Below are positions 14,901 to 30,800 of a stretch of DNA of 64,000 nucleotides, piece by piece. Below the pieces are notes generated by a model that worked only from the letters and a program-made list of their open reading frames with translations, was not told the origin of the DNA and made no database searches. The stretch is from a virus, in IMG/VR virus record IMGVR_UViG_3300044846_001307, positions 12,725 through 76,724 of that record; one strand, given 5' to 3'. Every line of letters starts with the position of its first letter. The first letter of the stretch is position 1. A program made the position numbers and the translations under genes.

Positions 14901-17889
14901 TTTTACCCATAGCACCACTATCAGGTTCTCCTTGCTCATCCCTGTAACTGTAGATTAGATCATTAATAGTTTTAAATGCTTCAGCTACATCAAATTTAGA
15001 TTTGGTAGCTTCATTCATTCTAGTTTGCAGTTCTCTAAGTTCTGTTATCAATGCATTTCTACTTTCCCAGTACTTAGGATCGTATTCCATTCTTAGATTC
15101 TGTCTTCTCCATTTTTCTAACTCAGCTTTAAAGTCTGCTGAACCAGGGGAGATTCCTTTAGTTTCTAATAAATCTGCAAACTCATTGTATGCACTTTGTA
15201 GTAATCCTTCAATAGGTCTCCACTCATAGAAACCTTTTGTAGCGGCTCTGTGTTCTTGTAAAACTTCAGCAATGCTTAAGTCATAGATTCCATTCTCCGG
15301 ATCATCTACTTTAGAAGTACCATCTTCATAAGTAAGAGAATATAATTGTTGAAACTCTCTGAATGCAGCTTGAATAGTAGAGTATTTTTCAAATCTCTCA
15401 TACTCATTCTCCATACTGTTTAGTAAGTTGTTGTAAGCTTGTAGCTTTTGCTTTCTAACAAAGTATGCTAATTTACCTACCTCAGACTTTTTAAAGATAT
15501 CATCTTTCTCATAGAATTCTGGCACATATTCTTGCCACATGAAGTCTCTTTTAAACTGTTCAAACTCCATAACTGCATCAGCAAGTTTTGTTTGATCTTC
15601 AGTTTTCTTTGCTTCTTCAATGTTCCACTCTAATAAATCATAATGGTATCTGTAGTCTTTGTATTTATCAAGATAAGCATAAACTTCTTTCTCAATAGGT
15701 TTACCTGTTTCTTTATCAAAATACATTATCTTATCTTTGAACCCAAGCTTTTCTCTTAACTGAATAGAGTTAAGTTTGCTGAATCCTACTTTAGGTAGAA
15801 GTTCTTCTAGTTTTTTTCTAAACTTCATAGACTGCTCCCAAACAACGTTTTGAACTTGAGTTCTCTCATTCTGAATAAACATTGCTAATGGTCCTACTAT
15901 AACATCATTACTTGAACTATAGCTTTCCAACCATCTATTGAACCAGGTAACATCCTGTGCACCTCCTGTAAGAGCTGCTCGGATCTTATCCTCATCAACT
16001 ACTAAGTCTTTGTATTCTTTTAAAAACCCTTTTAAAACATCCGCGGGAATACCTTTCTGTACTAATGCATCCACATCAGCATCTGTAAGAGTTTGTTGAA
16101 CAACTTTATTATATAAGTCATCAACTTCTTTCTCTAACTGATCTGCAGAGAAAGTTTGTTTTAATGCAATACCAAGGTTTCCTTTAAGTCTATCTTGAAT
16201 ATACTTAGACATGTATCCAGTAATCTCCACATAGAACTGTACGTTATTGTTCTTAAGGATATTTGCAATATTGGTATTGATTCTTGTAATGTTTAATACA
16301 ATCTCATTCAAGGTTTGATAGAAAGGATTACTACTTTCAATCAATTGACCTTCTGATGAAAGAGATTCATCAATTGCTTGAATCATTTTCAACCATGCTT
16401 TTGAATTTTGTTTGTATAACATTAACAAAGCAATAGTACTTCTATTGTTTATATTGGTATTGCTGATTCTTGAAACATCAAGTAACATGTTTTGGGTCAT
16501 GCTGTTGATATTATCTAATGTATTTACCAATGCTACTGCTCTTTGAAGATCTACATCTAGGGCCCCTTTGGCAGCATCTAATGCATTTTGAATCATCTGA
16601 TCTTCTGTAAAACTTTCAGTGTCTACATTAAGATTGTCTTTTAGTGTGCTAACCACCTCACGTAGATATCTGTTTGTTCCCTGTTCAAATAATGAATCCT
16701 TTAAGAATTTTCTTGATGCTTTGTCTCCTTTAAAGTTCTCAGCTTCTGTAAGAATTCTTCTATTAGTTTCATATATTTCACGGACCACTTTAAGTTGTGA
16801 CTCAGCATTAGAGAACTTGTTAAGTTCTTTTGCTCGGTCAACAACATTCCGTGAGAACATAACCAGATCTTCTTCTGTAATATTGTCTGTGTTAAACTCA
16901 AACTCTTTATCCAAGAGCATATCAGCTAACTCCTCTAGAGTAGTATCAACATCTAGTTTAGCAACGTTTACTTTATTCCCAAACAATTTTCTTAATAGCT
17001 GTTTAATAGCAGCCATAAGTTTGTTCATGAAACTTTGGAAACCTTCTGTTTCTATTTCATTGTTTATTCTATTAAGTGCTTTCAACTGCATTGCGTATGC
17101 TAGCACTTCTTCTTTGAATAGATCAGAGTTCTCTTCTAGTTCAGGATAGTTATTTAATACATAGTATTTAATACCTTGACCTTCTTCTGTAGCTAATGCT
17201 TGATCATATAGTTTCTGAAATAGGATGTTGTTTGTCTTTCTCAGGCCTTGGAGAACCGGGTGAGAGAATTCGTGAAGTACAGTTCTTACATTTACATTAT
17301 CACCTACTATATAAACAGTACCAGCATAATAAAATGCGGGTTCTCCATTGTATTTAACGGCTCTATTCTTTAAAATGTTTGCTGCTTCGTCTTGTGTAAT
17401 AGTTTCAAATTGTGCACCAATACCTTTAGATAATCTTTGTGCAAGTACTTCAGCAATTTCTCTTGATCTTTCGTTTTGTAACTCATCAAGTTTTACATCC
17501 ATAAATAATACACCATTAATCTCTTGTAAAGATTGATCTACTTTAGGATTATCTAAAGCTGGCATATCTTTCATCATCATTGCATCATCTGGTCTTGCAT
17601 TATACAAGTCCTGCAATCTCTCAAAAAGTTTTACATTAGGTTCAGCTCTAAGTACTCTATACTTTGCATCTCTCCAGTATGTAGATCTTTGTGGATCTAC
17701 ATGCTCAGACATATTAGTACTAAATAACTTAGTACCATCAGTTTTTAGACCATACTTTGTTTCAGCTAATGCTGTTATCTGATCATTTAACTTATCAAAA
17801 AGATCTTCATTGATGATTCTTCTCACATCATTTGTAGCTCCTTTATCTTGTAAAAACTTTATTGAATTTAATTGTACCTGACAAACCAT
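11953..17889 (-). CDS. giant virion ejection/cargo protein with zincin-like HExxH domain and LysM domain
   Basis: 1978 aa; VLHEFSH at ~17260-17280; LysM (VKGETLAEIAKKY.ISVDELKAKN...L..GQELII) at ~12815-12945; hydrophobic C-terminal helices; next to the RNAP gene. Confidence 0.8.
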   Translation of the reverse strand: MVCQVQLNSIKFLQDKGATNDVRRIINEDLFDKLNDQITALAETKYGLKTDGTKLFSTNMSEHVDPQRSTYWRDAKYRVLRAEPNVKLFERLQDLYNARPDDAMMMKDMPALDNPKVDQSLQEINGVLFMDVKLDELQNERSREIAEVLAQRLSKGIGAQFETITQDEAANILKNRAVKYNGEPAFYYAGTVYIVGDNVNVRTVLHEFSHPVLQGLRKTNNILFQKLYDQALATEEGQGIKYYVLNNYPELEENSDLFKEEVLAYAMQLKALNRINNEIETEGFQSFMNKLMAAIKQLLRKLFGNKVNVAKLDVDTTLEELADMLLDKEFEFNTDNITEEDLVMFSRNVVDRAKELNKFSNAESQLKVVREIYETNRRILTEAENFKGDKASRKFLKDSLFEQGTNRYLREVVSTLKDNLNVDTESFTEDQMIQNALDAAKGALDVDLQRAVALVNTLDNINSMTQNMLLDVSRISNTNINNRSTIALLMLYKQNSKAWLKMIQAIDESLSSEGQLIESSNPFYQTLNEIVLNITRINTNIANILKNNNVQFYVEITGYMSKYIQDRLKGNLGIALKQTFSADQLEKEVDDLYNKVVQQTLTDADVDALVQKGIPADVLKGFLKEYKDLVVDEDKIRAALTGGAQDVTWFNRWLESYSSSNDVIVGPLAMFIQNERTQVQNVVWEQSMKFRKKLEELLPKVGFSKLNSIQLREKLGFKDKIMYFDKETGKPIEKEVYAYLDKYKDYRYHYDLLEWNIEEAKKTEDQTKLADAVMEFEQFKRDFMWQEYVPEFYEKDDIFKKSEVGKLAYFVRKQKLQAYNNLLNSMENEYERFEKYSTIQAAFREFQQLYSLTYEDGTSKVDDPENGIYDLSIAEVLQEHRAATKGFYEWRPIEGLLQSAYNEFADLLETKGISPGSADFKAELEKWRRQNLRMEYDPKYWESRNALITELRELQTRMNEATKSKFDVAEAFKTINDLIYSYRDEQGEPDSGAMGKTRLERIRDLEQSIADFKFRFDSSTGLSKEDSEELRELSEKARKGLLQAGSAESKRYMYLLDLLNDQGISPEDAARIQDIFSELSDLSVNIPTTYYLETLNYNLSKQNIKELEIDEIDDFINTEEFEEILDADDAFKSWFETNHYVVQQYDKPSRAYIARYKRTKANTVSVPKDESNIKFTRILDRNGDEVVLMGTPNARHSRYQVKDEYRTIPFGADKSEYIGKYIDNKNQWLPRLYEPNSKYSALDNRFMNEKYFQMQAANSNEFKLLEAIKEYHLDNQKGQSSYSKLYLDMPRYALKKGDIYQAIQKGAYGQRFSELGANVKEWYKQALGKSVMDAENDLNYNPENNLVNTDLDGNQISYVPVSGIYNLDIEVQDADIFQGLFRYALSVQTQGKLLESLPLVQSILDTLEDPDNAPKELEKFDKNIYSLKGALTNAKKKFATNNRLGQVKSLIEREYYGKMVEGIEETHPGFGKWINQLQGLSAMGSLAVNIPSDLKNKYGGYVQLIIEGAGAEFINLKDIALARPWAEKAMLEWSTKGIYQTGPGAISTQLIQIFDPNFKSKDQFGREVERSLVKDLVNMEWMYMHRKFGEMQVAVSLFGAFMYGQKVDQILGDGTKKALRYIEAWEKDEDGIIRLKKGVHPGWNNLAVYHEYVKGETLAEIAKKYYISVDELKAKNRIKSEVQLEDGQELIIAKSELFMGLKNRIQGTSRKLFGAYDEMGQPEGNKLLLYRMFFFMRKWFTPMLMNRFGFDSKTISWTGGGDRYDWATTSYGKGFYITAFQTMLKTMKSGFKNYSYLTDQEKGAVRKMAGEGFFAIGLALLSLMLFGFDPEDDEKWKKLRAKSGAINEDSFNTYGFLANHMLLLAMGVQAESSAFVPLPNVKGINFGSDDYVKMITQTTTSWYNTVVLYIDIFGDVLDFVTFSEMDRYKRDTGPYSWKQEGELKIWSKLGKIFGLSGGTGDPVTQFENMVKNSSKRGS

Positions 17890-17890
17890 A

Positions 17891-20800
17891 TTATGAACAT
17901 TTAAACGGATCTTCTTCTAATTCCAATTGTGTTAATATTTCAGCATCTGAAATTCCTTGACTTGCACTCACTAAGTCTCTCATTTGGTCATACTTAGTAG
18001 AACCTGGATTAACATATTGAAACTCTTCAAATAACCTCTTACTTAAATATACAAATAATTCTTGAGGCATGGTATTAGGATCACCAAATCCATACTCTGG
18101 AAATGCAATTTTACCATCTTTATCTTGAATTTGTTTGATTATATTAATTCTCTTTTCCCAAATATTTTTTAGTGTTTGGTATTGGTCAGGACTAAGCTCA
18201 ACTTGTTTACCATTAACAACACTTGCAAATAAATTAGTTGGGAAATTAATAGACATGCTAGGTATTTCTGACATAAAGTTAGATGCACCACCTAGATTAG
18301 TACCTTTTGCAATTTGCTCAGGTTTAATCTCATAGACACTTGTGTTGTGTACAAAGACTACGTCCGGATTATTTTTACCTATGTTAGTGTAATAGTATAT
18401 ATTTTTAGCATTGCTATCATTATACATAAATACTCCTTCTTTATCTGTAGATCTTAAACCAAGTCTTTTTACTTCAGCTGTAGTATCTAGATTTGTAGAA
18501 TCTTCTTCAGCTACTTGCTCACCTCTTTGTGGTGTAGGTGCAACTGTAGGACTAATTCTTTCAGGATTAGCATAATCCATATTAGACAAGTAGTCTTTAA
18601 ATCTATTTTTGTTTAGATTAGTAACTGAGTTCTGTCTGATAAACTGATCATAGAAGTTATCCAACACTGTAAATCCTTTTTTATTCAAAGCATCCATAAA
18701 CTCACCAACCTCATCTTCTACAACAGCTAAGAAATCTGTGTAGTCAACAACATTTGTAAAGCTTAATTTAGTTTTGTTTAGACCTGTTTGCAAGAAAGCA
18801 AATGTGTTTAAGTATTTAAACATATCACTGATTCTAGCATTCTCTTGTGGATCACTAACTTTTTGTACAGTTGGATCTGCTAATCTTTTAAGATCATTAC
18901 TATAAAGATTGGCCTTATCATTATCAAAACTCTTCTCAGCTAACAAGATGTTAAATGCAGTCTCAGTTTTATCTGAATCAAGTTTTAATCTACCCAATAC
19001 TGGATAGTCTTTTGCAAGCTCTGGATTGTTTTGTAACAACTTAGACATTCTTACAGCAAAAGCATTATCACTATCTTGGAATAAGTGGAAGAAGTTGTAT
19101 GAATTATCTAAAGCTTTGACAGCTAATAGTTTTTCATATGTATATCTTGCAGCTTTTTCACTTGATAAATCTGGGAACAGTTCTTTTGTAGTTTTTAGTT
19201 CTTCTTGGAATTCTACTGAAGTAGAGAAGTCTGTTGTAAGAGGGTATACTGATCTCAAGTACTCACGTTCTGAAACAAATTTCTGATATTCATTGAAGTT
19301 TGTTTCTTCATTATTCATGAATGTTGATGGATGTAATGGGTATAAACCTCTATCCTCGTAACTATTCTCTACATCTGATCCTTCTACCCAAGCCTGTGCT
19401 TTGAATTCTTTCTGTAATTGTTTAACATCTACATATAAAGTACCACCTTTAACAAATGCACCTCTCTTAAGTTCTTTTACAAGTGCAGTAGGAATTTTAG
19501 TCTCCATGTTTAAAGACATAAATCCTTCTTCAGCTTTATATTTTCTTAGAGCATTCTGAAGAATAAAACTTACAATATCATTTCTAAATACATTGCTGAA
19601 CATTTCAACATTCTTACCTGGAAAAGTAGTTTCAAGATCATTTCTGATTTGATTCTTTCTTGCAATTAAGTAATCACTAATCTGTTTGTGGTATCTTAAT
19701 TTAAATAAAGGTCTACTTACAGCTAAAGCCATAGGTCCATTAAAGAAAGAACTAATTACAGAGTCATTCATCATTCTATCCAAAATTTCTCTTGGAATTC
19801 TTTCATCATACTGTAATTCATCAATGTTAGCTTCACTTTGCTCTACATCAGATAAAGTAGACTTAGTAGCTGTATCTGGATTAGAACTCATTTTAAGTGC
19901 TGTATATCCAGAAATTTGTTGTTCTAATTCAAGGTAATGTAGGAACATAGCTTTTGCAATATCACTATCTGCATCATTATCCATGATAAGTTTTTCCATC
20001 TCCTTTTCAGTAAATGTTTGTTCTTTTCTACCATTGAAATGAGCATCCAATAATTCTTGGCCTTTTAAATATCTAGCATCATTACTAGAATTTTTAGCTA
20101 ACTCAGCTTTGTCAAAATGTTTTCTAATAACTTCAGATGCAGCTTTGTATTTTGCTAATCCTGGACTATCTGGTTTCTTGTTAAGTACATCAGCAAAAGT
20201 AGATTTAGCAAGACGTTGTTCATCCACATACTCTCTCACCAATGGGTTAGATACAAAATAGATTGCTTCTTGAACAGGTACACCAGCTTTAACTAGATAA
20301 AGTAAAGTTGGAGCTACCTCATAGTTACCTTGGATAAAGAAGATCCATGCATCTTTCTCAACATCCACCCAACCATTCATCATCTGAGAAATAACATCAG
20401 CTACTTTATTGACACCATCAACATCATATAAATTTGACATAGAGATGACTTCTTTACCGTCCACAATCATTTTATTGTTTCTCAACCTCATGTTGCTCTT
20501 TCTCAATTCTTTCTTGATAGTATATTCATCCGGCATATAAGCACCAATTGAATTCATAATAACATTGAAAGTATTTTCAATAGCACCGAGACCTAAAGTT
20601 TTCTTACCTACAATATTAGATTCATGTTTGTATATGTTATACATTGCTTCTAATACTCTTGTAGGACTAATTTCTCCAGTATTGTCAGTCATTTTATTAT
20701 TCTTAGGATTGTACTCCGAAACATACTCTGATAATTTTTCAGCAATGTCTTTAAGAATAAACGTACCATTTGGCATAATAAGAGATGCATAGTTATCAGG

Positions 20801-23800
20801 AAGCTCAAGAATGTTTCTGATATCTTCTATAAGTTCATTTTCTAATGCAGCTTTTTGTTCTTTAACAGCTTTGGTAAAATTATCACCACCTCTAAGATTT
20901 TTTATAGCTTCATTATCTTTATAACTACGTTTGATTATATTACCGTTTTCATCAATTGTATTCATGAAAATTGTAAGTTTATCAATATCAAAGTCACCCC
21001 CTGACTTAGCAACGATCTCTGCCGGTGGAATAATTATATTACCAGCTTGTGGAGGAAGGAATTCAAATACCTCAGCAAACTCCATAGAGTTAAGACCTTG
21101 TACAGGAATACGTACACCCACTATAGTAATAGCTTTTCTGATTGCACCATCATTAGCATCTAACCAAGAGTCATCTTTGATTTTTTCATTTAATCTAGCT
21201 AATGATTTATCCATATCAAGTGTACCATCTTCAAGATAAACACCTACAGTTTCTTCATTAGCATATTCTAAATTGAATAGGTTATAATATGAGCCCTGCA
21301 TAGCTATCATAACTTTAGCAGCAGCAGTATAACCATTAGATTTTTTATGATAAGTAGGTAACAAGTATGTTGTAGAGGCCCATTTTTTGATCTCATCTTT
21401 ACTTGCTTTTCTTAAATCAGGCTCTGTAAATTGATTTGCATACAAACCAACAGATACTTGAATTAATGGCTCACCTGTAACTTTTTGTTTGATTACTCTC
21501 TTATTAATCATAGAAAGTAATAACTTCTCTATTTTAGCAGCTTCCGGGTGGAAAGAAAGATCATGGACTAAGTCTCCATTATTATCAAATACATCAATAA
21601 ACTCAATAAGATCATCACTCAAAACTTCTTCTCTTTCAAGATTTGTTCTGATCATGTTTACAAGTTTAGCAATGCTTGACTTATCTTTAGCTTTGTATTC
21701 TCCAGGAGTAGTTTCTTCATACCCCATCTCTTCAAGAAGTTCTATCTTAAGTAGGTTAGTATACTCTTCAACGTGATCTAGATATTTTTTTACTCTAGTG
21801 TTAGTAATGTCTTGATATTTTGTAGACTTGATTACACCTTGCTCATATAGACCCTCAAGAATTAACTTTCTCAACTGTGTAGAGAAGATTGATTTACCTT
21901 TGTAAGTTGCATTAACCTCTGTTTGGTTCTTCAAATACTCAGCATAAATAGTGTTAATTGTAAATTCTGAGTTTTTATTGAATGTTCCATCAGGGTTTAA
22001 AACAACATCTCCGTTTCCAATATGACCTACTTTGGAACCAGACTCAAATAAAACGTAGTCTATTTGGTCTTTCATCATTTTCTCATGCAAGTCAAATAAC
22101 GGAGTACCCTCTCTTCCTACTCCAGGAATAATAGGAGCAAGAGAGAACTTGTGGAAAGAGTTAACAGGAAGACCTGTTGATTCTATATTACCAAAGTACT
22201 GTAATTTATATGGAGGGAAGAACTCTACTACATCCTCTACAGTGATATTCTCACCCATAGCAACTTTTCTGTATAGTAATTCTTGTTGATCACCCCAGTT
22301 ACCTTCTAGATGTTTTAATCTTCTATAAGTCTCAAAGGATACAATACCCTGACCATCAGCAATCTTCATCTGTGCTTTGTCAGCTGAGAAGTATTCAGAT
22401 GCTGCTTTGTCTGCAATTTCTTTTGCTTTCTTCTTGTCTTTAGTTCTTTCATATGCAGCTGCTTCAATCTCATCTCTGTACTCTTTGTACATAACAGAAT
22501 TGAACTGCATTTCTTTTATAATAGCTGTTTGTAAAGTACCATCATAGTTTCTAACTTCATAACCTCTTCTATCAGCATAGTAGTTTTTCAAAGAACTAAC
22601 ATAGATTTGTGCTCTTTTGTCTGCTCTAAATCCTTTACCACCAGATGCTAGACCTGCATTACGTTTGTGGAATTCTTCTTTAGCATGATTATATTGTACT
22701 AAATCTCCATATGCAATGATAACAGTCTCCATCTTATGGATGAAAGAGTTATATGTGTAAGCTTTTACTAATGCAGTTTCTATGTCTTTTTCAGTAAGAT
22801 CTTCATTAGTAACTCTGATTCTTTCAATAAGACCTTTGTCTACATACTTAGCTTTTTGAAGTCTACCATAGTTAGCAGCAGTATCAATATCAAAATAATC
22901 TTCAACATCTTTTCTAATTTGATCTCTTAACTCCGGGTTATTATCTAACTCAGTCATTAAATCAAAATCAGAAAGACTATTGTCTGAAGCTTTATCAATT
23001 ATAGCATACAAACTTTTTTGTGTGGTTGCTCTAAGGACATCATCAAATGCAGTAAAGGCTTGTCCAGCCATAACTGCAGTTTTTTGACCATCTTTTCTTT
23101 TTACTTTTCTATTATAGCCAGCATAATTCTTGAACTTATCTTTATCCTGTTGGAATCTAAAGATTCTATTACCCTCACCAACAAGATATCCTTCAATGAT
23201 ATCATATGATTTTAGTGTACCATCAGCATAAGGTAAGAAAGACTCCATATCTACATAAAGTTTAGAAGCTTTTTTACCATTATAAGTCTTGATATCACCA
23301 TCAAGAGTCATACCCATTGCAGTGTTTTTAGAAGCATGTCTCATGAATTCCTCAACACCACTCAATAACATCGTGTGAAACTCTTGTAGGTATTTACTAG
23401 TAGCATCCATTGATGCTGTAGAAGTACCTCCTTCATTTCTACGACTTACCATCTGAGTACCAGCAACATTTTGCAATACAATTTTTGTATCTGAAATTTT
23501 TTGACCATATGTTTGAGACATAGGATCAAGATCAAATATTGAAGTTAAAAGTTTTGAGAAAGGACTGAATGTATTATTTGATTCATTCAACCATCTCATA
23601 TGTTTAAATCTACCATTTGGATCAGCTTCAGCTGTTGTAAGTTGTTGCCAATTGTCAGCATAATTAATAGCTGCAATAATTCTTGTGATAGTATTATCAA
23701 CCATGTGTTCCCATACTCTGTTTCCTTCAGGGGTTTGTACACTAAAGTTTGAATAACTATCAGAGAATGCATTTTGAATTCCTGCTAATGCTCTGATTCT

Positions 23801-26800
23801 ACCTCTTACTTCATCACTTTGTGCTTGGTTATCTCTAAGTGATTCAGGAAGACCATTAAGTAAGTATGTAAGTGGGTCTTTCTTAAATAAGAATGCGTCA
23901 GAAGATGCACTTTTATTTACTTTTTTGATAACCTCATACATTCTATCAACACCAAATGTTGTACTGAATGGCGTAGTTCTGTTGTTAATCATCTCTTTGA
24001 TTGCAGAACTAGATTGATCTAACACAACACCAATAGCTTGTAAGAACTCATTAGCTTTACGGTAGTTAAATCTACCATCAGTACCAAAGTCTTTTACAAT
24101 TTTAGCTGTGTTCAATATATTATTACCATACTTATCTTTTGATACATATGGGTTAATTGTACTATCTGCAGTAACAAAGTTAGATTTCCAATCTTGAATT
24201 ACCTGGTATACATCAAAGTTAGCTTTAGCAACACGGGCTTCAAAAGATTTATTTATACCTTCCTCAGTTCTAGCTTCTTCTTTGTTTAAGTTAAGCTGAA
24301 CATATGGGATTCTTGGTTTCTTAAAGTCTTGCCAGAAATTTGTTTCTGATGCAAACTCCATTGAAGTATACTCCCCTAGAGCAGTCTTCTCATTAAAGAA
24401 TGGATTAGGTAGTAACGTTTGTAGTTGTTCAAGCTCAGGATAATTCTCAGAATTTTCAAAGATTCTTGAGTACATATCCATTTCATCAAATGAACCTTCT
24501 AAGATTTTAGCAAGTCTATTCCAAGTAATGTCAATGTCCTGTAATACAGGAAGACCAAAAAGACCTTCTCTACTAGTTACAATCTCTCCATTTTCTTTGG
24601 ATACTTTGAAGATACTAGCTAATAACATCATAGTGTCTTCACTAGCAAGTTCTTTTGAAGAAATAGTGTTACCGTCATTTAACTTAAACAAGTTACTCTT
24701 CTCAATATTGCTTGGATCTTCAATCTCTATATATTCATCTCTTAGTACACGGAATCTAGACTTCTCAAGATGATATGCTATAACATTGTTTTTTTCTTTA
24801 CCATCAAGACTATCTGTTAGATTACCAAAATTAGCTGTGATCTTATCTAACAATTCTAATTCTTCAATGAATTTAGGATCAGTTAATAACTCATCATCAG
24901 CCTCTAGATCAGTAACATAAGCAATTCTTAATCTTTCAAATCTGTCATAGATATCTCTGTAAAGATCTTTTTTGTTTTCTGGATCTTTAAGAAGTTTTAA
25001 TGCAGCAGCTGTTGTATTGAAGTCTCTGTTGTGAGCTTGAAATATAACAGACATCATGCTGTCCATTGCATCAGCAATTTTCTTAGACTCTTCTAATGTA
25101 AAGTTATCATTGATGATCTTACTTCTGTTTAGTTTCCCAAACATTACATTATCCATAGAAGGTTTTAAGCTAGATAGAATACTTGGATTCTCTGAAGCTC
25201 TGTATAATTTGTCAAACAATTCTTTTACAGACTCAACATCTTGCAAGCTTGTAGCAGCTTGTTTCTTACTAACTTTACCAAATAGCTTTTGGATAAACTG
25301 GTAGATCTTGTCAAACAGTCTACCTAAAAGACCTTTAACTTCTTTCTTACCTTTTGATTTAGCATATGATCTAAATTCTTCAGCCAAAGATTCCTCTATA
25401 TCAAAGAAACTTTTGCCTTTGTATTTAGGTAACGATTGTATTTCTTCATAAAGTTTGATCTTCTCATCCTTAGTTAAAAGTAATTGAGAGAAACCGTGCC
25501 ATGCTTCATGATAAACATCAACCATGGTACCACCATCAGCTTCATAAAGAGTAATACCATAACCAGACCAGGTAGCAAATGCATCTGAGTTTACAATTTC
25601 TGTTACTCTCTCAAGACTAATGAACTTACTCAAAGGTGAATTGTTCCACCATGTCTCTGCTTTTTGTCTGTCAGATTTAGAAGTAAAGACTTTGTCTAAG
25701 AATCTATCACGCAGTTTACTTCTGTCTAATCCTTTCTTTTTATATAAAGCACTGTTTGATGAACCATTAATGATATCATCTAATAGAGATACTCTAGTTG
25801 ATGGATTGTTCTTAATGTTTGTTTCTTTAGCTTCAGCTTCTGTTTTAGAAGGAGTTTCTTTTGCAGTTACTGGCTTGGTACGGATCTGTTTTTTAGGAGC
25901 AGCTTTTGGTGCTTCTTTATCAACCTTAGTTTTAGCAACAGGTGTTGATTGAGTAGGTTTTGGTCTACCAACAGGAATGATTCCATCAAACTCAACAGTA
26001 CCTTCAGGTATTGCATAAGTCAGATAAGCATTCATACCATTCTCATATGCATTAGTCTCAGCTGTATATGTAATTTTGATAAATGGTTTAATTACTTCAA
26101 AATAATTCTTAGAGACTTCAGTAATTTTATCTCCTTCAATATTATAATCAGTAATAGTTTTACCCTTATACTTATTATTGTATTGCACATTAGCTGGCCA
26201 AAACTGATCTTTAACTTTGTCTTTTGGTCTAGCATTTAATAAATGATCTATAATAAGTTTTTTACCTTCTTCAGTATAAAGAACATCTTGAGGTATCTCT
26301 TTACCATTGATCTCTACAAAGAATGTTTTCTCATTATTTACAATAAGAACCTTTGCTCTAATTCTATCTCTGTTATATGGAAGATTTGTTTTGTATCCTG
26401 TTTTAGGATCTTTCATCAAAGCATTATTGATAAAGATTTCAAAGTATGCTTTTCTTTCATCCGGTGTCAACTCTCTACCTTTTAACTTTGCTGTAGTAGT
26501 TAATACTGTTGCAAGTTGTTCAGCCAAAGACTGATCAATGTCTGATCTTTGTAAAAATACTTCTTGGTCAACATTTAATCCTCCAGCTTTAGTTTTCTGA
26601 ATAATAACATATTGTTTACCACTATCTTTACCAGTTGTGATACCAGTATAATTTTTGATATCTGCTTCAGTAAGACCAGCTTCTTCCAAAGTCATAGTCT
26701 TAATTGCTGTTCTTGGAATACCAAATGTTCCTCCTAAAATTGGAAGAATGATTTGTAACTCACCATTAGACTCTTCAATTAATTTTCTTAATTGATAAAG

Positions 26801-27838
26801 CTCATTCATTTCTCTGTCTTGACGATCTTTGATAGTTTTAACAAGTTGTTTGAATTGAGCTTCGGTTACTTTAACCTTACCATTACTCTCTTCTTCAATC
26901 AAAGCTTTCTGTCTACCAGCAATTACTTCTGGTTGAACAAGATTATAATGACGATTACTTCTGTTAGATAATAATAACTTACCATCTACAAGGTTTACTT
27001 TTCTAAGATATTGGTAAACTATTCTACCCTCTTGAGGATTGTCTGTAATTGTACCGTCTTCTTTAAAATAAACTAGATCTCCTTTTGCATCAGTTATAAC
27101 AGCTGCTATACCATTATCATTAGGATTCTTCTCTAGGAATAATCTATCATCAGTAGTCAATAACTCAGGAGAAATGTTTCTTGTAAGTTGAGTAGTCAAT
27201 GCAAGTATTACTCCATTGTATTCAATCTCTTCTGTACCTACTCTTTGTTTAGATATTTCTACTATAGCTTTAACTACTTCAGAAAATAGTTTCTTTTCAG
27301 GATCTATATTATTTCTGTCAGCCTCAGATAGTGTTTCTGGATTTCCTGCAAATGCCATTTGGATAGAGGTAGCCCAAGGAGTTGTTACTTTAGCACCATT
27401 ATCTTCATTAAATGACCAGAACTCCTTCTCGTCTACTTCAGGAACAAAGTCTTTTTTACCTTTGTTTGTATTTTTAATCTCAGAATCAATCTGCTGCTTG
27501 CTCTTTTTTTTAGTTGCAATATCCTTTCCTACCTCAGTAAGATCAGCATATCTTTTTCTCATTTGTGCAAGAGCAGTAAAATCAAAACCATTATCAACTA
27601 GATAATCATTAGCTTCATTGTCTTGAGTAACTAAATGGAATACATCAGGAATAGCTTGTGCATATAACATAGCTTTAACTTGATCTCCTGTAGCTTCTTT
27701 TACAACATTGTATGTGTCTTGAACAATTTTATTCAAGTCAATTGCAGGTAATTCAGAATTACCTAATCTATCAGTTACTTCACCATAAAGTACTTCATAT
27801 AAATCTAATACCTGCTCTCTATTTAAACTACATGCCAT
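17891..27838 (-). CDS. virion-packaged single-chain double-psi-beta-barrel RNA polymerase (crAss-like) with zincin-like domain
   Basis: 3315 aa; RIPVQG...GGDFDIDKL catalytic DxDxD at 20981-20995; ADGQG, ESGSKVG, STQLRKL and VDVEKD motifs; YHEAWH at ~25496-25513. Confidence 0.9.
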   Translation of the reverse strand: MACSLNREQVLDLYEVLYGEVTDRLGNSELPAIDLNKIVQDTYNVVKEATGDQVKAMLYAQAIPDVFHLVTQDNEANDYLVDNGFDFTALAQMRKRYADLTEVGKDIATKKKSKQQIDSEIKNTNKGKKDFVPEVDEKEFWSFNEDNGAKVTTPWATSIQMAFAGNPETLSEADRNNIDPEKKLFSEVVKAIVEISKQRVGTEEIEYNGVILALTTQLTRNISPELLTTDDRLFLEKNPNDNGIAAVITDAKGDLVYFKEDGTITDNPQEGRIVYQYLRKVNLVDGKLLLSNRSNRHYNLVQPEVIAGRQKALIEEESNGKVKVTEAQFKQLVKTIKDRQDREMNELYQLRKLIEESNGELQIILPILGGTFGIPRTAIKTMTLEEAGLTEADIKNYTGITTGKDSGKQYVIIQKTKAGGLNVDQEVFLQRSDIDQSLAEQLATVLTTTAKLKGRELTPDERKAYFEIFINNALMKDPKTGYKTNLPYNRDRIRAKVLIVNNEKTFFVEINGKEIPQDVLYTEEGKKLIIDHLLNARPKDKVKDQFWPANVQYNNKYKGKTITDYNIEGDKITEVSKNYFEVIKPFIKITYTAETNAYENGMNAYLTYAIPEGTVEFDGIIPVGRPKPTQSTPVAKTKVDKEAPKAAPKKQIRTKPVTAKETPSKTEAEAKETNIKNNPSTRVSLLDDIINGSSNSALYKKKGLDRSKLRDRFLDKVFTSKSDRQKAETWWNNSPLSKFISLERVTEIVNSDAFATWSGYGITLYEADGGTMVDVYHEAWHGFSQLLLTKDEKIKLYEEIQSLPKYKGKSFFDIEESLAEEFRSYAKSKGKKEVKGLLGRLFDKIYQFIQKLFGKVSKKQAATSLQDVESVKELFDKLYRASENPSILSSLKPSMDNVMFGKLNRSKIINDNFTLEESKKIADAMDSMMSVIFQAHNRDFNTTAAALKLLKDPENKKDLYRDIYDRFERLRIAYVTDLEADDELLTDPKFIEELELLDKITANFGNLTDSLDGKEKNNVIAYHLEKSRFRVLRDEYIEIEDPSNIEKSNLFKLNDGNTISSKELASEDTMMLLASIFKVSKENGEIVTSREGLFGLPVLQDIDITWNRLAKILEGSFDEMDMYSRIFENSENYPELEQLQTLLPNPFFNEKTALGEYTSMEFASETNFWQDFKKPRIPYVQLNLNKEEARTEEGINKSFEARVAKANFDVYQVIQDWKSNFVTADSTINPYVSKDKYGNNILNTAKIVKDFGTDGRFNYRKANEFLQAIGVVLDQSSSAIKEMINNRTTPFSTTFGVDRMYEVIKKVNKSASSDAFLFKKDPLTYLLNGLPESLRDNQAQSDEVRGRIRALAGIQNAFSDSYSNFSVQTPEGNRVWEHMVDNTITRIIAAINYADNWQQLTTAEADPNGRFKHMRWLNESNNTFSPFSKLLTSIFDLDPMSQTYGQKISDTKIVLQNVAGTQMVSRRNEGGTSTASMDATSKYLQEFHTMLLSGVEEFMRHASKNTAMGMTLDGDIKTYNGKKASKLYVDMESFLPYADGTLKSYDIIEGYLVGEGNRIFRFQQDKDKFKNYAGYNRKVKRKDGQKTAVMAGQAFTAFDDVLRATTQKSLYAIIDKASDNSLSDFDLMTELDNNPELRDQIRKDVEDYFDIDTAANYGRLQKAKYVDKGLIERIRVTNEDLTEKDIETALVKAYTYNSFIHKMETVIIAYGDLVQYNHAKEEFHKRNAGLASGGKGFRADKRAQIYVSSLKNYYADRRGYEVRNYDGTLQTAIIKEMQFNSVMYKEYRDEIEAAAYERTKDKKKAKEIADKAASEYFSADKAQMKIADGQGIVSFETYRRLKHLEGNWGDQQELLYRKVAMGENITVEDVVEFFPPYKLQYFGNIESTGLPVNSFHKFSLAPIIPGVGREGTPLFDLHEKMMKDQIDYVLFESGSKVGHIGNGDVVLNPDGTFNKNSEFTINTIYAEYLKNQTEVNATYKGKSIFSTQLRKLILEGLYEQGVIKSTKYQDITNTRVKKYLDHVEEYTNLLKIELLEEMGYEETTPGEYKAKDKSSIAKLVNMIRTNLEREEVLSDDLIEFIDVFDNNGDLVHDLSFHPEAAKIEKLLLSMINKRVIKQKVTGEPLIQVSVGLYANQFTEPDLRKASKDEIKKWASTTYLLPTYHKKSNGYTAAAKVMIAMQGSYYNLFNLEYANEETVGVYLEDGTLDMDKSLARLNEKIKDDSWLDANDGAIRKAITIVGVRIPVQGLNSMEFAEVFEFLPPQAGNIIIPPAEIVAKSGGDFDIDKLTIFMNTIDENGNIIKRSYKDNEAIKNLRGGDNFTKAVKEQKAALENELIEDIRNILELPDNYASLIMPNGTFILKDIAEKLSEYVSEYNPKNNKMTDNTGEISPTRVLEAMYNIYKHESNIVGKKTLGLGAIENTFNVIMNSIGAYMPDEYTIKKELRKSNMRLRNNKMIVDGKEVISMSNLYDVDGVNKVADVISQMMNGWVDVEKDAWIFFIQGNYEVAPTLLYLVKAGVPVQEAIYFVSNPLVREYVDEQRLAKSTFADVLNKKPDSPGLAKYKAASEVIRKHFDKAELAKNSSNDARYLKGQELLDAHFNGRKEQTFTEKEMEKLIMDNDADSDIAKAMFLHYLELEQQISGYTALKMSSNPDTATKSTLSDVEQSEANIDELQYDERIPREILDRMMNDSVISSFFNGPMALAVSRPLFKLRYHKQISDYLIARKNQIRNDLETTFPGKNVEMFSNVFRNDIVSFILQNALRKYKAEEGFMSLNMETKIPTALVKELKRGAFVKGGTLYVDVKQLQKEFKAQAWVEGSDVENSYEDRGLYPLHPSTFMNNEETNFNEYQKFVSEREYLRSVYPLTTDFSTSVEFQEELKTTKELFPDLSSEKAARYTYEKLLAVKALDNSYNFFHLFQDSDNAFAVRMSKLLQNNPELAKDYPVLGRLKLDSDKTETAFNILLAEKSFDNDKANLYSNDLKRLADPTVQKVSDPQENARISDMFKYLNTFAFLQTGLNKTKLSFTNVVDYTDFLAVVEDEVGEFMDALNKKGFTVLDNFYDQFIRQNSVTNLNKNRFKDYLSNMDYANPERISPTVAPTPQRGEQVAEEDSTNLDTTAEVKRLGLRSTDKEGVFMYNDSNAKNIYYYTNIGKNNPDVVFVHNTSVYEIKPEQIAKGTNLGGASNFMSEIPSMSINFPTNLFASVVNGKQVELSPDQYQTLKNIWEKRINIIKQIQDKDGKIAFPEYGFGDPNTMPQELFVYLSKRLFEEFQYVNPGSTKYDQMRDLVSASQGISDAEILTQLELEEDPFKCS

Positions 27839-27839
27839 T

Positions 27840-30800
27840 TTAACAAGTTTTTGAATTTTCAGCTAATTTATCTAATCTTGATTTTTTATCAGATGCTTTT
27901 GATTTTTCTTTTGCTTCAGCAAGTGCTGCTGCATCATTTTGAATATCCTTGATAGTATCTTTTGATTCATTAGAATCTTCGATATCTACAGGAGTTATTT
28001 CTACATTTGCTTCAGGTTGTGTTGCTTCCATAGTTGTTTTTTCAAAATTTTCTATAAGTTCTGCTTCAGTAAAATCTCTTGATTCTTCAGTTTTAATATT
28101 TTTTAATTTAACTGAATCTTTACCTTTTTTCACCACGATTACTTCTTCACCAGCGAAGTCTGTAAAGATAGGATTTTTACTTATAAGATACTCATCCACA
28201 GCAATGTTTTGAATAGAAACTATTGTTTTTAATTCCTGTAATCTATTAGCATAAGCTTCTCTTATTGCAGCTGTATTCTGATCATTTTTCACAGCATCCA
28301 AGAATGCTTTTTCATATACAGTTTCAATAGTATCTAACGTAGCATTATTTATTTCTTCTACAGAATCTAACACTTCTTCAAACTCTACTGGCTCTTCAAA
28401 AGTTTCACTTAAACCTTCTTGTCTTGCTTGTTTGACAAGGTCTTCAAGTTCCGTTCTTGTAGCTGGTCTAGAAACTCCTTCTGCTGGTTTTCTGCTAGAC
28501 CTTTCATCCGTAGGTACACTAGTCCCTTTCTGTACTTCTGTTGATCCTGGCCCGAAGACTTGGTCTGCTGCTTCTTGTTTTTTGCTGATTCTTCCATTCT
28601 TAGTTAAATTAATTAATTGCATGTCATTAAGTAAATCATTCAATGCATTAATTTGATTAGTAATATCATCTACTATGTCTCCACGGTTGATTACACTGTA
28701 ACCTAATGACTCTAATTTTTTAATAGTGTTTTGAGCCCATTTTGTAATAGTGTTGAGATCTGATTTCTTTAAAGCTTGAACACCACTCTCTATCAAAGTA
28801 TCTAATACTTCAGGGTACTCAGCACTCATTATTTCTGTAATTGCTGTACCAATGCTACGTGATAAAGATAAGTTATCTATTGCTTTTAAGTCTTGTGTTT
28901 CATTTGCTTTTGTAGCATTTCTAGTAGCTCTTTGGAAACTATTAGGTAATCTGTTAAGAGCAAAAATAAAAGTATCTGCATTCTCTCCATAGACAAACAT
29001 TTTTTTGTTTGATTCTGCAAGAGAAACTCTCTTATTACCTAGTTGTTTAATTTGATCTTGTAGTTTTGCTATTTTAGTAATTAAAGCATCTCTTTTATCA
29101 GAATCTACATCTTCTGTAGAGACAATGTTACGGAGGTCTCCTATTCTTTGAGACAGTACACCAATTTGTTTATCAATCTTACTGATTGTTTCATCATTAG
29201 ACATATAACTTAACACAGTTATAGTTCCAGTTGAATCTCTCAATACATCATATCTTACACCGTTAATGGTTGCAACAGTATCATCATTGTTTGAGAAGGC
29301 TGCATTAATTACTTGACCATTTACAGTTGATACTTGACCAACGTTTTGTGTTTCTATTACTAAACTTGCACCAGCATCACTTAAAGTCAGCTCACCATTG
29401 TATACATTTCTGCTATCTTTTTGTAATGGATATACTTCAGTAAACCCTTCTGCTGAATTTATTGCATCAGATATTCTTTTAATATCATTCTTTAATGCTT
29501 GAAGAGTTTCTTCAGTACCATATTCTTTCTCTACTGACAAGTTAGCTTCTAAAGTATCTAATGTAAGCTGTAGTGTTGAGATATCATTATTTACAGTTAC
29601 CTCTATACCAAAAGCCCCATCAGGCATTGTTACTAGTTTACCAATACGACCATTCAAAACAATTGGTTTATTGATATTATCAATAAGTTTGTTTTTAGCT
29701 GGATCAGATTCTTGTATACCTGGATTTGTAGTACTTTCTTTAGCTGCCTCTTTTTTAATAGGTGCTTTAATTTCAGGCGTTGTTTTAGTAATACCGTAGT
29801 TTTCAATTTCCGGTAAGTATTCTAAATCAATTGTGTCTTTTCCATCCTCTACAATAGAAGCAAGCTCAATATCATTGATATAACCATCAATAGTTACATC
29901 AATTTCAAACGGCATTAACTTCAAGTCAGGTGTAATAGCTGTATTGTTATGGAACATGTATCCATATATAGACTGTTGAGCACGGAAATATGTAGACTTA
30001 TCTTTAAGTTTACCTGTTCCAAATGCTGCCCACTTGTCTTTACCTGCAGTTTTAATATCCACAATAGCAACGGATCCATCTTCTCTTACTAAAAGTAAGT
30101 CAAGCTCTCCTGTTACACCATTTCCGTCTCGTAAATTTCTATCAAATAGTTTTACGTTCTCTGATAAAATAGTATATGTACCATCAACTATACCTAGTCT
30201 AAATTTAGTAACTATACCACCTGGGCTGCTAGAAGTAACCGGTGCAAAAAGTTTATCAAAAACTTTTCTGGCCATTACATCTGAGATCTTAACCATTTTA
30301 CCTTTTATCTCTACTGTAGAATCATAATCAAATTCTGAAAAGTTTGATTTAGTTCCTGCATTAGGAGTAAGGAATACTCTGATTAAGTTATCCACCACGT
30401 CACCAGCATCTGCAAATTCTCTGAATGCTGTTCTTGAAACAACATTTTTTAAATTTTCATATGTAGGTTTAGTACCTAAGGCATCCTCAATAGTTTTTAA
30501 TTTATTCTCAGATCTAAATACTTTCCATCCACCTTGTGATTGGTAAACTTTTCTTTTAAAAGCTTCCATGAACAAACGTACTCTGTCTTCAGGTACTATA
30601 TCTGGATCATTAAAGAACTGATTAAATAAATTTTCAAGAGGAGCAGCAGTAACATTACCGTCTGCATCAACTCCTGGTTTTAATGGGTTGTATATAAATG
30701 GATCTTTACCTAACAAGTTTGTTTCAACTTCTTCAGCAACTTGAGTAGAACGAGCTGGCATAGGATCATTAGGACCTCTATCAGCAAAAGTTCTACCAAT

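What the first reader, a model, noticed from the sequence alone, without database searches (positions are those of the whole stretch)
17881..27845. Three giant ejection proteins appear to have cysteines only at their adjoining ends, suggesting a head-to-tail covalent chain
Seen: the 2463-aa protein ends ...NSKTC* (Cys codon 27843-27845). The 3315-aa RNAP starts MAC... (27830-27832) and ends ...PFKCS* (17897-17899). The 1978-aa protein starts MVC... (17881-17883). Reading by eye I found no other Cys in these ~7750 residues, and the two free ends of the trio have none. Both gene junctions are stop + 1 nt + ATG. Inference: Cys pairs join protein 1 to RNAP to protein 3 in gene order (disulfide or metal bridge), so they could be threaded through the tail as one ordered chain and separated in the reducing cytoplasm.
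Basis: partly seen in the sequence, partly recalled or inferred. Interest (0 to 1): 0.85.

Follow-up and report, generated by a model that had tools for sequence, protein, structure and literature searches.

The report
Terminal cysteines chain crAss cargo proteins
Three giant proteins of this lake-water crAss-like phage, with its injected RNA polymerase in the middle, have no cysteine except one at each end that faces the next protein. Relatives across the phage order keep this rule wherever the chain is broken and drop it where the genes are fused, which points to untested end-to-end disulfide links.

Summary
The 2463-aa, 3315-aa (RNA polymerase) and 1978-aa proteins hold 4 Cys in 7756 residues: the last residue of the first, Cys3 and Cys3314 of the second, and Cys3 of the third. 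About 81 would be expected from the 1.04% Cys of the window's other ORFs.

About 330 full-length homologues and 65 related loci (36-99% identity) keep the four terminal Cys and almost no internal ones. The rule holds across Crassvirales, including phi14:2 and crAss001, where the first gene lies on the other strand.

Where two of the proteins are fused (Suoliviridae; Intestiviridae and Crevaviridae), that Cys pair is missing and the other pair stays. The first break lies at non-homologous positions in different lineages, yet is always flanked by Cys.

Cysteine depletion of ejected proteins is already known (N4, DEV). A C-end to N-end disulfide between two single-Cys ejection proteins has been seen by cryo-EM in cyanophage A4.

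Best reading: a head-to-tail disulfide tether that makes one roughly 881-kDa linear chain. The bond, the threading and the reductive release are all untested.

This scan reached the same reading earlier on other crAss-like genomes.

The parts
27840..35231 (-). Protein A, 2463 aa (275.6 kDa). First member of the trio and counterpart of crAss001 gp47 and phi14:2 gp67. Its single Cys is the last residue.
   Evidence: 120 homologues end in ...NS[KT]xC, and 119 of 120 have no internal Cys. BLASTP of residues 1594-1782 to crAss001 gp47 gives E = 6.5e-5.
27843..27845 (-). Cys2463 codon (TGT) of A, directly before the stop codon.
   Evidence: A Cys at the C-end of A is present in 43 of 43 related loci.
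17891..27838 (-). Protein B, 3315 aa (377.7 kDa). crAss-type virion RNA polymerase. Cys only at residues 3 and 3314.
   Evidence: BLASTP to phi14:2 gp66 gives E = 5e-11 and to crAss001 gp50 E = 1.8e-12. 120 homologues start MAC.L and end EDPF[KNT]C.
27830..27832 (-). Cys3 codon of B. It faces the C-end of A.
   Evidence: M1, A2, C3 and L5 are invariant in alignment A1.
17897..17899 (-). Cys3314 codon of B (penultimate residue). It faces the N-end of C.
   Evidence: D3310, P3311, F3312 and C3314 are invariant in A1.
20981..20995 (-). DFDID catalytic motif of the RNA polymerase (B residues 2282-2286).
   Evidence: D2282, D2284 and D2286 are invariant. The DFDxD motif is described for crAss-like RNAPs in bioRxiv 10.1101/2020.03.07.982082.
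25496..25510 (-). HEAWH zincin-like motif in the N-terminal third of B (residues 777-781). It is homologous to a module that lies in the C-terminal part of protein A in crAss001.
   Evidence: Window B residues 775-891 align to crAss001 gp47 residues 2155-2257 with E = 3.7e-6. Both also match the same stretch of the fused cr10_1 giant.
11953..17889 (-). Protein C, 1978 aa (228.0 kDa). Last member of the trio and counterpart of phi14:2 gp65 and crAss001 gp49. Its single Cys is at residue 3.
   Evidence: Residues 1-85 are 36% identical to phi14:2 gp65 residues 1-84, E = 1.7e-7.
17881..17883 (-). Cys3 codon of C. It faces the C-end of B.
   Evidence: M1 and C3 are invariant in A2. A Cys at the N-end of C is present in 51 of 52 loci, coded by TGC in 14 and TGT in 37.
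12814..12930 (-). LysM domain of C (residues 1654-1692).
   Evidence: Pfam PF01476, 26.4 bits against a cut-off of 20.9. PHROG 1274.
12412..12468 (-). The only membrane-helix-like segment of the trio (C residues 1808-1826).
   Evidence: Kyte-Doolittle scan with a 19-residue window, score 1.87. Nothing in A, B or the 1060-aa protein reached the threshold.
35237..38419 (-). Upstream 1060-aa protein with no Cys. Probably further cargo, and not part of the Cys chain.
   Evidence: Its counterpart (about 820-1150 aa) has no Cys wherever it is present in the related loci.

Best explanation
A, B (the virion RNA polymerase) and C are packaged cargo proteins that are ejected into the host. They are purged of cysteine, as ejected proteins of other podophages are.

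The four Cys that remain form two inter-protein links: the C-end of A to the N-end of B, and the C-end of B to the N-end of C. These links are most likely disulfides that form or persist inside the virion in oxic lake water.

Each Cys lies within a few residues of a chain end. The linked trio therefore has the topology of one unbranched polypeptide of 7756 residues (881 kDa), the same as the natural fused forms in other crAss families.

I infer that this fixes the stoichiometry and order of the three proteins and lets them pass the narrow tail as one thread. I also infer that the links can be opened by thiol reductants once in the cytoplasm.

Shown here: the pattern, its conservation and its covariation with gene fusion. 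Shown elsewhere: virion packaging of the homologues, disulfides in crAss001 virions, and an identical C-end to N-end disulfide in phage A4. Inferred: the bond itself in crAss-like phages, the threading as one chain, and the reductive release.
For: (1) Pattern in the window. There are 4 Cys in 7756 aa, all within 3 residues of junction-facing ends, against an expected 81.

(2) Conservation in the protein database. Among full-length homologues the internal Cys counts are A 1 in 288,134 residues, B 9 in 383,179 and C 4 in 240,574, with the terminal Cys kept.

(3) Conservation in related loci. In 65 distinct IMG/VR loci at 36-94% identity, the C-end Cys of A is present in 43 of 43, the N-end Cys of C in 51 of 52, and Cys at the free ends in none. 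Internal Cys number 25 in 424,565 residues.

(4) Selection acts on the amino acid, not on the DNA junction.
- Both TGT and TGC are used.
- Stop-to-start spacing runs from -11 to +1837 nt.
- In crAss001, Kolpuevirus and cr106_1 the gene for A lies on the opposite strand and still ends in a Cys.

(5) The same rule holds in cultured phages. In phi14:2, gp67 has Cys1797 of 1797, gp66 has Cys3 and Cys2179, and gp65 has Cys3, with no other Cys. In crAss001, gp47 has Cys2339, gp50 has Cys5, an internal Cys1334 and Cys2404 of 2412, and gp49 has Cys5.

(6) Fusions replace the pairs.
- In Suoliviridae A and B are fused (4328-4946 aa). No Cys lies near the fusion point, and the B-C pair is kept.
- In Intestiviridae and Crevaviridae B and C are fused. 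The A-B pair is kept and no Cys lies at the C-end.

(7) The A|B break has moved. It lies upstream of a zincin module in the window's lineage and downstream of it in crAss001 and p-crAssphage. It is flanked by Cys in both cases.

(8) Precedents. crAss001 virions contain inter-subunit disulfides, and gp47, gp49 and gp50 are virion cargo (PMC10172136). A cryo-EM disulfide joins gp27 Cys1715 and gp26 Cys5 in phage A4 (PMC12002296). In the A-4L record these are the only Cys of a 1717-aa and a 1114-aa protein.

(9) Habitat. The DNA occurs in lake and freshwater metagenomes of 16 studies, three of which may be the window's own source.
Against: There is no direct evidence of a bond in any crAss-like virion. 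The cargo proteins were not resolved in the crAss001 maps.

Virions assemble in a reducing cytoplasm, so the bond would have to form after packaging or after lysis.

Gut crAss phages live in a largely anoxic habitat, yet they keep the terminal Cys.

In A4 the disulfide staples a folded pentameric pre-ejectosome. This shows that such a link need not have anything to do with threading.

Gut lineages tolerate a few internal Cys, for example 5 in Kolpuevirus B.

Charge complementarity of the facing ends is clear only at junction 1: +2.3 against -2.4 there, and -5.5 against -0.1 at junction 2.
Confidence: 0.6

Rival explanations
1. The Cys pairs are real disulfides, but they only staple a folded cargo core or pre-ejectosome inside the capsid, as in phage A4. 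They would help co-packaging in fixed stoichiometry and play no part in translocation. The proteins would separate or unfold independently on ejection.
For: In A4 the gp27 Cys1715 to gp26 Cys5 bond sits in a folded pentameric ring, where the C-terminal helix of one protein inserts into a cleft of the other. About 20-45 residues next to each terminal Cys are conserved in the window's lineage, which suggests structured docking elements.
Against: A staple could sit anywhere on an interface. Yet in every family sampled the Cys lie within 1-10 residues of a chain end, and the natural alternative is a peptide-bond fusion. This fits a requirement for a linear, unbranched chain. The crAss001 maps show no ordered cargo core.
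Confidence: 0.2
2. The facing thiols are bridged by a metal ion (Zn, Fe or Cu) rather than a disulfide. Neighbouring acidic residues would act as further ligands.
For: The C-end of B carries conserved acidic residues (E-E-D-P-F-K-C). A metal bridge would not need an oxidising environment, which would suit gut phages.
Against: Across families nothing but the Cys itself is conserved around the junctions. No His or second Cys lies nearby. A four-Cys site shared by all four ends is excluded, because fused lineages keep only two of them. The one solved example of this geometry is a disulfide.
Confidence: 0.07
3. Each terminal Cys acts on its own, for example by binding a capsid, portal or tail protein, or by serving as a redox sensor or modification site. 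The facing arrangement would be a by-product.
For: Some upstream cargo proteins in gut phages have a lone near-C-terminal Cys with no partner at the next N-end. Examples are p-crAssphage gp47 (Cys856 of 857) and crAss002 gp30 (Cys550 of 557). crAss001 tail proteins do use inter-protein disulfides.
Against: Independent roles do not predict three things seen here. The two Cys of a junction are always lost together on fusion. The free ends never carry a Cys (0 of 43 and 0 of 52). A relocated break again carries a Cys on both sides.
Confidence: 0.08
4. The pattern is chance, or a nucleotide-level signal at the gene junction such as translational coupling that happens to encode Cys.
For: In the window both junctions read TGT..TAA-N-ATG-NNN-TGT.
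Against: The placement probability is about 5e-13. The Cys are conserved where spacing runs from -11 to +1837 nt, under either codon, and with the gene for A on the opposite strand in crAss001-like phages.
Confidence: 0.01

Closest known systems
Cyanopodophage A4 / Anabaena phage A-4L ejection proteins gp27 and gp26 (pre-ejectosome cryo-EM, PNAS 2025, PMC12002296)
   Same: Two consecutive large ejection proteins each have a single Cys. One lies 3 residues from the C-end (Cys1715 of 1717) and the other 5 residues from the N-end (Cys5 of 1114). Cryo-EM shows them disulfide-bonded inside the capsid.
   Different: There is no detectable sequence similarity to the window's trio; the best BLASTP E-values are 0.02-0.5. 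A4 has one link, not two in series, and no RNA polymerase in the chain. In A4 the bond sits in a folded five-fold ring. The paper states no conservation rule, no fusion covariation and no threading idea.
Cysteine suppression in the Schitoviridae ejection proteins (N4 gp50 vRNAP; DEV gp71, gp72, gp73; PMC11445570)
   Same: A giant virion RNA polymerase and its co-ejected partners are almost Cys-free against a proteome background of about 0.9%. The authors explain this as avoidance of periplasmic disulfide formation.
   Different: The N4-like proteins have no Cys at all, so no terminal pairs. Their polymerase is a T7-like single-subunit enzyme and is unrelated to the crAss DFDxD enzyme.
Crassvirales virion RNAP trio: phi14:2 gp67/gp66/gp65 and crAss001 gp47/gp50/gp49 (bioRxiv 10.1101/2020.03.07.982082; PMC10172136)
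   Same: These are homologous proteins in the same order. They are virion-packaged by mass spectrometry, and they follow the same terminal-Cys rule in my counts.
   Different: Neither paper mentions the cysteines. The preprint notes that the three are fused in some phages and assumes cleavage. The window's lineage is a distant freshwater branch (about 22-25% identity in the polymerase core) with larger proteins.
Release-dependent capsid disulfides of polyoma- and papillomaviruses (from my own knowledge, not checked here)
   Same: Inter-subunit disulfides form outside the reducing cytoplasm and are reduced on entry, so the redox state acts as an uncoating switch.
   Different: Those bonds link capsid proteins in a shell, not cargo proteins end to end.

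Membership tests
Crassvirales virion RNA polymerase (phi14:2 gp66 type) | DFDxD catalytic motif | tested here: met
   GGDFDIDK lies at residues 2280-2287. D2282, D2284 and D2286 are invariant in 25 homologues.
Crassvirales virion RNA polymerase (phi14:2 gp66 type) | Sequence similarity to gp66 and crAss001 gp50 across the catalytic region | tested here: met
   BLASTP E = 5e-11 to phi14:2 gp66 and 1.8e-12 to crAss001 gp50. tblastn hits 43 Crassvirales records. A phmmer search against PDB sequences found nothing at E <= 1.
Crassvirales virion RNA polymerase (phi14:2 gp66 type) | Two double-psi beta-barrel fold; packaged in virions and delivered to the host | not tested
   I made no fold prediction. 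Packaging is known only for the homologues.
Cys-suppressed phage ejection proteins (N4 / DEV type) | Cys frequency near zero against about 1% in the rest of the proteome | tested here: met
   4 in 7756 residues against 138 in 13259. Across homologues, 14 internal Cys in 911,887 residues.
Cys-suppressed phage ejection proteins (N4 / DEV type) | Complete absence of Cys | tested here: not met
   Four conserved terminal Cys are present.
A4-type C-end to N-end disulfide between consecutive ejection proteins | A lone Cys within about 5 residues of the C-end of one protein and of the N-end of the next | tested here: met
   Window: residues 2463/2463 with 3, and 3314/3315 with 3. A-4L: 1715/1717 with 5.
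A4-type C-end to N-end disulfide between consecutive ejection proteins | Disulfide observed in the virion | not testable with these tools
A4-type C-end to N-end disulfide between consecutive ejection proteins | Homology to A4 gp27 and gp26 | tested here: not met
   The best BLASTP E-values are 0.02-0.5. The relation is one of analogy, not family membership.
LysM domain (PF01476) in protein C | Score above the Pfam gathering threshold | tested here: met
   26.4 bits against 20.9, residues 1654-1692.

The most novel reading that the evidence does not exclude
Crassvirales deliver about 0.7-0.9 MDa of protein as one covalent, unbranched pseudo-polyprotein. Wherever evolution has cut the chain into separate genes, a terminal disulfide restores it. 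The chain is pulled through the tail as a single thread in a fixed order and is then cut at the disulfides by the host's cytoplasmic thiol reductants. Redox state would therefore time the release and activation of the RNA polymerase.
Probability: 0.3. Interest if true: 0.9.

Novelty: new variant of a known kind. Interest (0 to 1): 0.75.

Why it matters
It is an open question how crassviruses, the most abundant phages of the human gut, get three proteins of 150-380 kDa through a tail channel narrower than 50 A, and in what order. The crAss001 structure paper says only that the order is likely to be controlled by packing and mutual interactions.

A sequence rule that holds across the whole order gives a concrete hypothesis: a Cys pair at every break of the chain and none where the chain is fused. 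It can be tested on phages that are already cultured (phi14:2, crAss001). For crAss001, reduced and non-reduced virion samples have already been analysed by mass spectrometry.

If the rule holds, it also gives a practical way to recognise the ordered cargo set of uncultured phages from sequence alone. It would extend the single disulfide seen in phage A4 to a general principle of protein ejection.

Tried and rejected
**Searches that gave nothing**
- PHROGs and Pfam on the 1060-aa protein, A, B and C gave no family for any of them except LysM in C.
- A phmmer search of B against PDB sequences found nothing.
- The first tblastn call failed on the length limit and was repeated with a shorter query.
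- BLASTP of A4 gp26-gp29 against the trio showed no significant similarity.
- Literature searches for any description of terminal Cys in the crAss RNAP trio found none. The library lacks most subscription journals.

**Uninformative tests**
- I looked for a phage-encoded thiol oxidase (Erv1/ALR, PF04777) or thioredoxin (PF00085) in the window's own record and found none. The record is only 62% complete, and the Erv1 control matched in no control genome.
- Charge complementarity of the facing ends was present at junction 1 and weak at junction 2. I did not use it as support.

**Readings rejected**
- Nucleotide-level junction signal: rejected on variable spacing, both Cys codons and opposite-strand genes.
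- A four-Cys metal or cluster site formed by all four ends: rejected because fused lineages keep only two Cys.
- Intein-like or hedgehog-like self-cleavage relic: considered and dropped. Such chemistry needs the nucleophile as the first residue of the downstream product and no Cys on the upstream product.

**Apparent counter-examples**
- B is split in L077 and A is split in L049, with no Cys at the break. Each turned out to be a single frameshift inside continuous coding sequence, so neither is a real gene break.

- The look-up of encoding contigs.
- Complex prediction.
Full report
**1. The observation**

The minus strand carries four consecutive large ORFs:
- 35237-38419, 1060 aa
- 27840-35231, A, 2463 aa
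- 17891-27838, B, 3315 aa
- 11953-17889, C, 1978 aa

A computed count gives exactly four Cys in the 7756 residues of A, B and C: A-2463 (the last residue), B-3, B-3314 and C-3. The 1060-aa protein has none.

The other ORFs of the window hold 1.04% Cys. About 81 Cys are therefore expected in the trio (Poisson P = 1.6e-29 for four or fewer). The chance that four randomly placed Cys each fall within three residues of a junction-facing end is about 5e-13.

**2. What the proteins are**

B carries the DFDID motif of crAss-type RNA polymerases at residues 2282-2286. It matches phi14:2 gp66 and crAss001 gp50 around that motif, with BLASTP E = 5e-11 and 1.8e-12. tblastn hits 43 Crassvirales records at about 21-26% identity.

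C has a LysM domain (Pfam, 26.4 bits) and the only membrane-helix-like segment of the trio. Its first 85 residues are 36% identical to the start of phi14:2 gp65. A matches crAss001 gp47 weakly (E = 6.5e-5).

The homologous trios are virion proteins by mass spectrometry in phi14:2 and crAss001. The window's record is a 76.7-kb, 62%-complete virus contig. Its DNA is found in lake and freshwater metagenomes of 16 studies, three of which may be the window's own source. Together the three proteins weigh 881 kDa.

**3. Conservation within the lineage**

Three protein-database searches returned 120 homologues each, at 44-99% identity.
- Of the full-length B homologues, 111 start M-A-C (rarely M-I-C) and end ...DPF[KNT]C followed by 0-2 residues.
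- 116 A homologues end ...NS[KT]xC.
- 107 C homologues start M-x-C-[QED]-V.
- The exceptions are truncated or mis-started gene calls.

Internal Cys number 1 in 288,134 residues for A, 9 in 383,179 for B and 4 in 240,574 for C. In alignments of 25 and 27 diverse members, with mean column identity 52% and 46%, the residues M1, A2, C3, L5, D3310, P3311, F3312 and C3314 of B, and M1 and C3 of C, are invariant.

A scan of IMG/VR gave 73 loci with DNA, 65 of them distinct, down to 36% identity.
- The C-end Cys of A is present in 43 of 43.
- The N-end Cys of C is present in 51 of 52.
- Cys at the free ends is present in 0 of 43 and 0 of 52.
- Internal Cys number 25 in 424,565 residues.
- The upstream protein of about 820-1150 aa has no Cys wherever it is present.

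Many homologues carry inserted accessory domains (kinase-like PF06414/PF13671, PF25176, PF12694, PF08719, PF13532) and still have only the terminal Cys or at most one extra.

**4. The signal is not at the DNA level**

Both Cys codons occur; TGC codes 14 of 51 Cys at the N-end of C. The distance from stop to next start runs from an 11-nt overlap to 17 nt, with outliers of 197 nt at junction 1 and up to 1837 nt at junction 2. In crAss001, Kolpuevirus and cr106_1 the gene for A lies on the opposite strand from B and C and still ends in a Cys.

**5. The rule holds across the order**

Split trios:
- phi14:2: gp67 has Cys1797 of 1797, gp66 has Cys3 and Cys2179 of 2180, gp65 has Cys3. There is no other Cys.
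- crAss001: gp47 has Cys2339 of 2341, gp50 has Cys5, Cys1334 and Cys2404 of 2412, gp49 has Cys5.
- cr111_1, cr106_1 and Kolpuevirus follow the same pattern.

A and B fused in one protein of 4328-4946 aa (Suoliviridae: cr1_1, cr125_1, cr118_1, cr109_1, cr4_1):
- The giant has a Cys 1-4 residues from its C-end and none at its N-end.
- The next protein has a Cys at position 3-5.
- cr1_1 has only one other Cys in 4551 residues.
- cr10_1 has a similar 4460-aa giant, with its last Cys 11 residues from the end. Its next gene lies outside the stretch I read.

B and C fused:
- p-crAssphage gp44, Wotdevirus and crAss002 (Intestiviridae), and cr127_1 (Crevaviridae).
- A ends in a Cys, 1-2 residues from the end.
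- The fused protein starts M-S-C or M-N-Y-C and has no Cys at its C-end.
- In crAss002 the annotated start is probably 32 codons too early, because an M-S-C follows at residues 33-35.

BLASTP maps the fusion points. No Cys lies within the inferred junction intervals. The peptide bond and the Cys pair are therefore alternatives at the same place.

**6. The break has moved**

Window B residues 775-891 (HEAWH at 777) align to crAss001 gp47 residues 2155-2257 (HExxH at 2157), E = 3.7e-6. Both match the same stretch of the fused cr10_1 protein. Window A residues 1594-1782 align to gp47 residues 1699-1871.

The colinear order is therefore: anchor, break (window lineage), zincin module, break (crAss001, p-crAssphage, Wotdevirus), polymerase core. 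The A|B break lies at non-homologous positions, yet it has a Cys on both sides in each case. This argues that the Cys pair goes with the break, not with an inherited local motif.

Two apparent extra splits without Cys (L077 and L049) are single frameshifts in continuous coding sequence.

**7. What is already known**

Cysteine suppression is published for the ejection proteins of N4-like phages. It is explained there by passage through the periplasm, which holds disulfide-forming enzymes (PMC11445570). This accounts for the missing internal Cys, but those proteins have no Cys at all.

crAss001 virions contain inter-subunit disulfides in the tail and at the portal vertex. Their cargo proteins were not resolved, and the order of ejection is left open (PMC10172136).

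The phi14:2 preprint notes that the trio is fused in some phages and assumes cleavage. It does not mention cysteines.

A note from this scan led me to the cryo-EM study of cyanopodophage A4. It shows a disulfide between Cys1715 of gp27 and Cys5 of gp26 in the pre-ejectosome (PMC12002296). In the A-4L genome these are the only Cys of a 1717-aa and a 1114-aa protein encoded by consecutive genes. They show no sequence similarity to the window's trio.

I found no paper that describes the crAss rule.

**8. Mechanism**

The data favour two pairwise links, A-B and B-C. A shared four-Cys site is excluded, because fused lineages keep two Cys only. The only solved case of this geometry is a disulfide, and crAss virions do hold disulfides, so a disulfide is the most likely chemistry.

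The Cys are always within a few residues of a chain end: positions 3-6 at N-ends and 1-9 residues from C-ends. Peptide-bond fusion is the natural alternative. Both facts fit a need for an unbranched chain that can pass a narrow channel.

The strictly Cys-free interior would also prevent wrong pairings. It is absolute in the aquatic lineages (the window and phi14:2) and looser in gut phages. This contrast is my inference.

The direction of travel is open. C carries the LysM domain and the membrane-like segment near its C-end, while gp45 of crAss001 is proposed to leave N-end first. Bond formation after packaging or lysis, and opening by cytoplasmic reductants, are also inferences.

**9. Limits**

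The search for a phage thiol oxidase or thioredoxin was uninformative.

**10. Relation to earlier scan notes**

The same reading was reached before on other crAss-like genomes. I re-derived it independently on this window. I add the moved break, the codon and spacing test, the frameshift check and the direct count on the A-4L record.

Noticed in passing
window 49544-53329 (-): A 1261-aa protein further upstream also has no Cys at all. Its neighbours have 4-15 Cys, some of them in paired CxC motifs. It may be further ejected cargo.
   Followed up: no
window 25496-25510 (-) and 17260-17274 (-): The trio holds two HExxH zincin-like motifs: B residues 777-781 and C residues 206-210. In several lineages such a motif lies within about 185-430 residues of a chain break: crAss001 gp47 at 2157 of 2341, p-crAssphage gp45 at 1743 of 1957, phi14:2 gp65 at 245. 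They might process the fused forms.
   Followed up: partly
homologues P0008, P0031, P0055, P0064, P0102, P0107, P0117-P0119, P0138, P0242, P0290, P0320: Accessory domains are inserted into the giant proteins of relatives: zeta-toxin/AAA_33 kinase-like, PF25176, PF12694, PF08719, a 2OG-Fe(II) oxygenase, GNAT and an ART-like PF18760. In the RNA polymerase homologues I checked, the proteins that carry them still have only the terminal Cys or one extra.
   Followed up: partly
L011 8087-10660 (p-crAssphage gp47) and L090 6451-8124 (crAss002 gp30): In gut crAss phages some smaller cargo proteins upstream of the trio have a lone Cys close to the C-end (Cys856 of 857; Cys550 of 557). The next protein has no Cys at its N-end. 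This is unexplained.
   Followed up: no
L088 (cr4_1) 5324-28240: This Suoliviridae genome reads through many in-frame stop codons under table 11 (38 in the fused giant), as expected for a reassigned stop. The terminal-Cys rule still holds.
   Followed up: no
L077 about 16540-16560 and L049 about 7625-7635: Single frameshifts interrupt B and A in two IMG/VR contigs. They are probably assembly errors.
   Followed up: yes
L090 17146-17250 (crAss002 gp33): The annotated start is probably 32 codons too early. An M-S-C at residues 33-35 matches the starts of p-crAssphage gp44 and of the Wotdevirus giant.
   Followed up: partly
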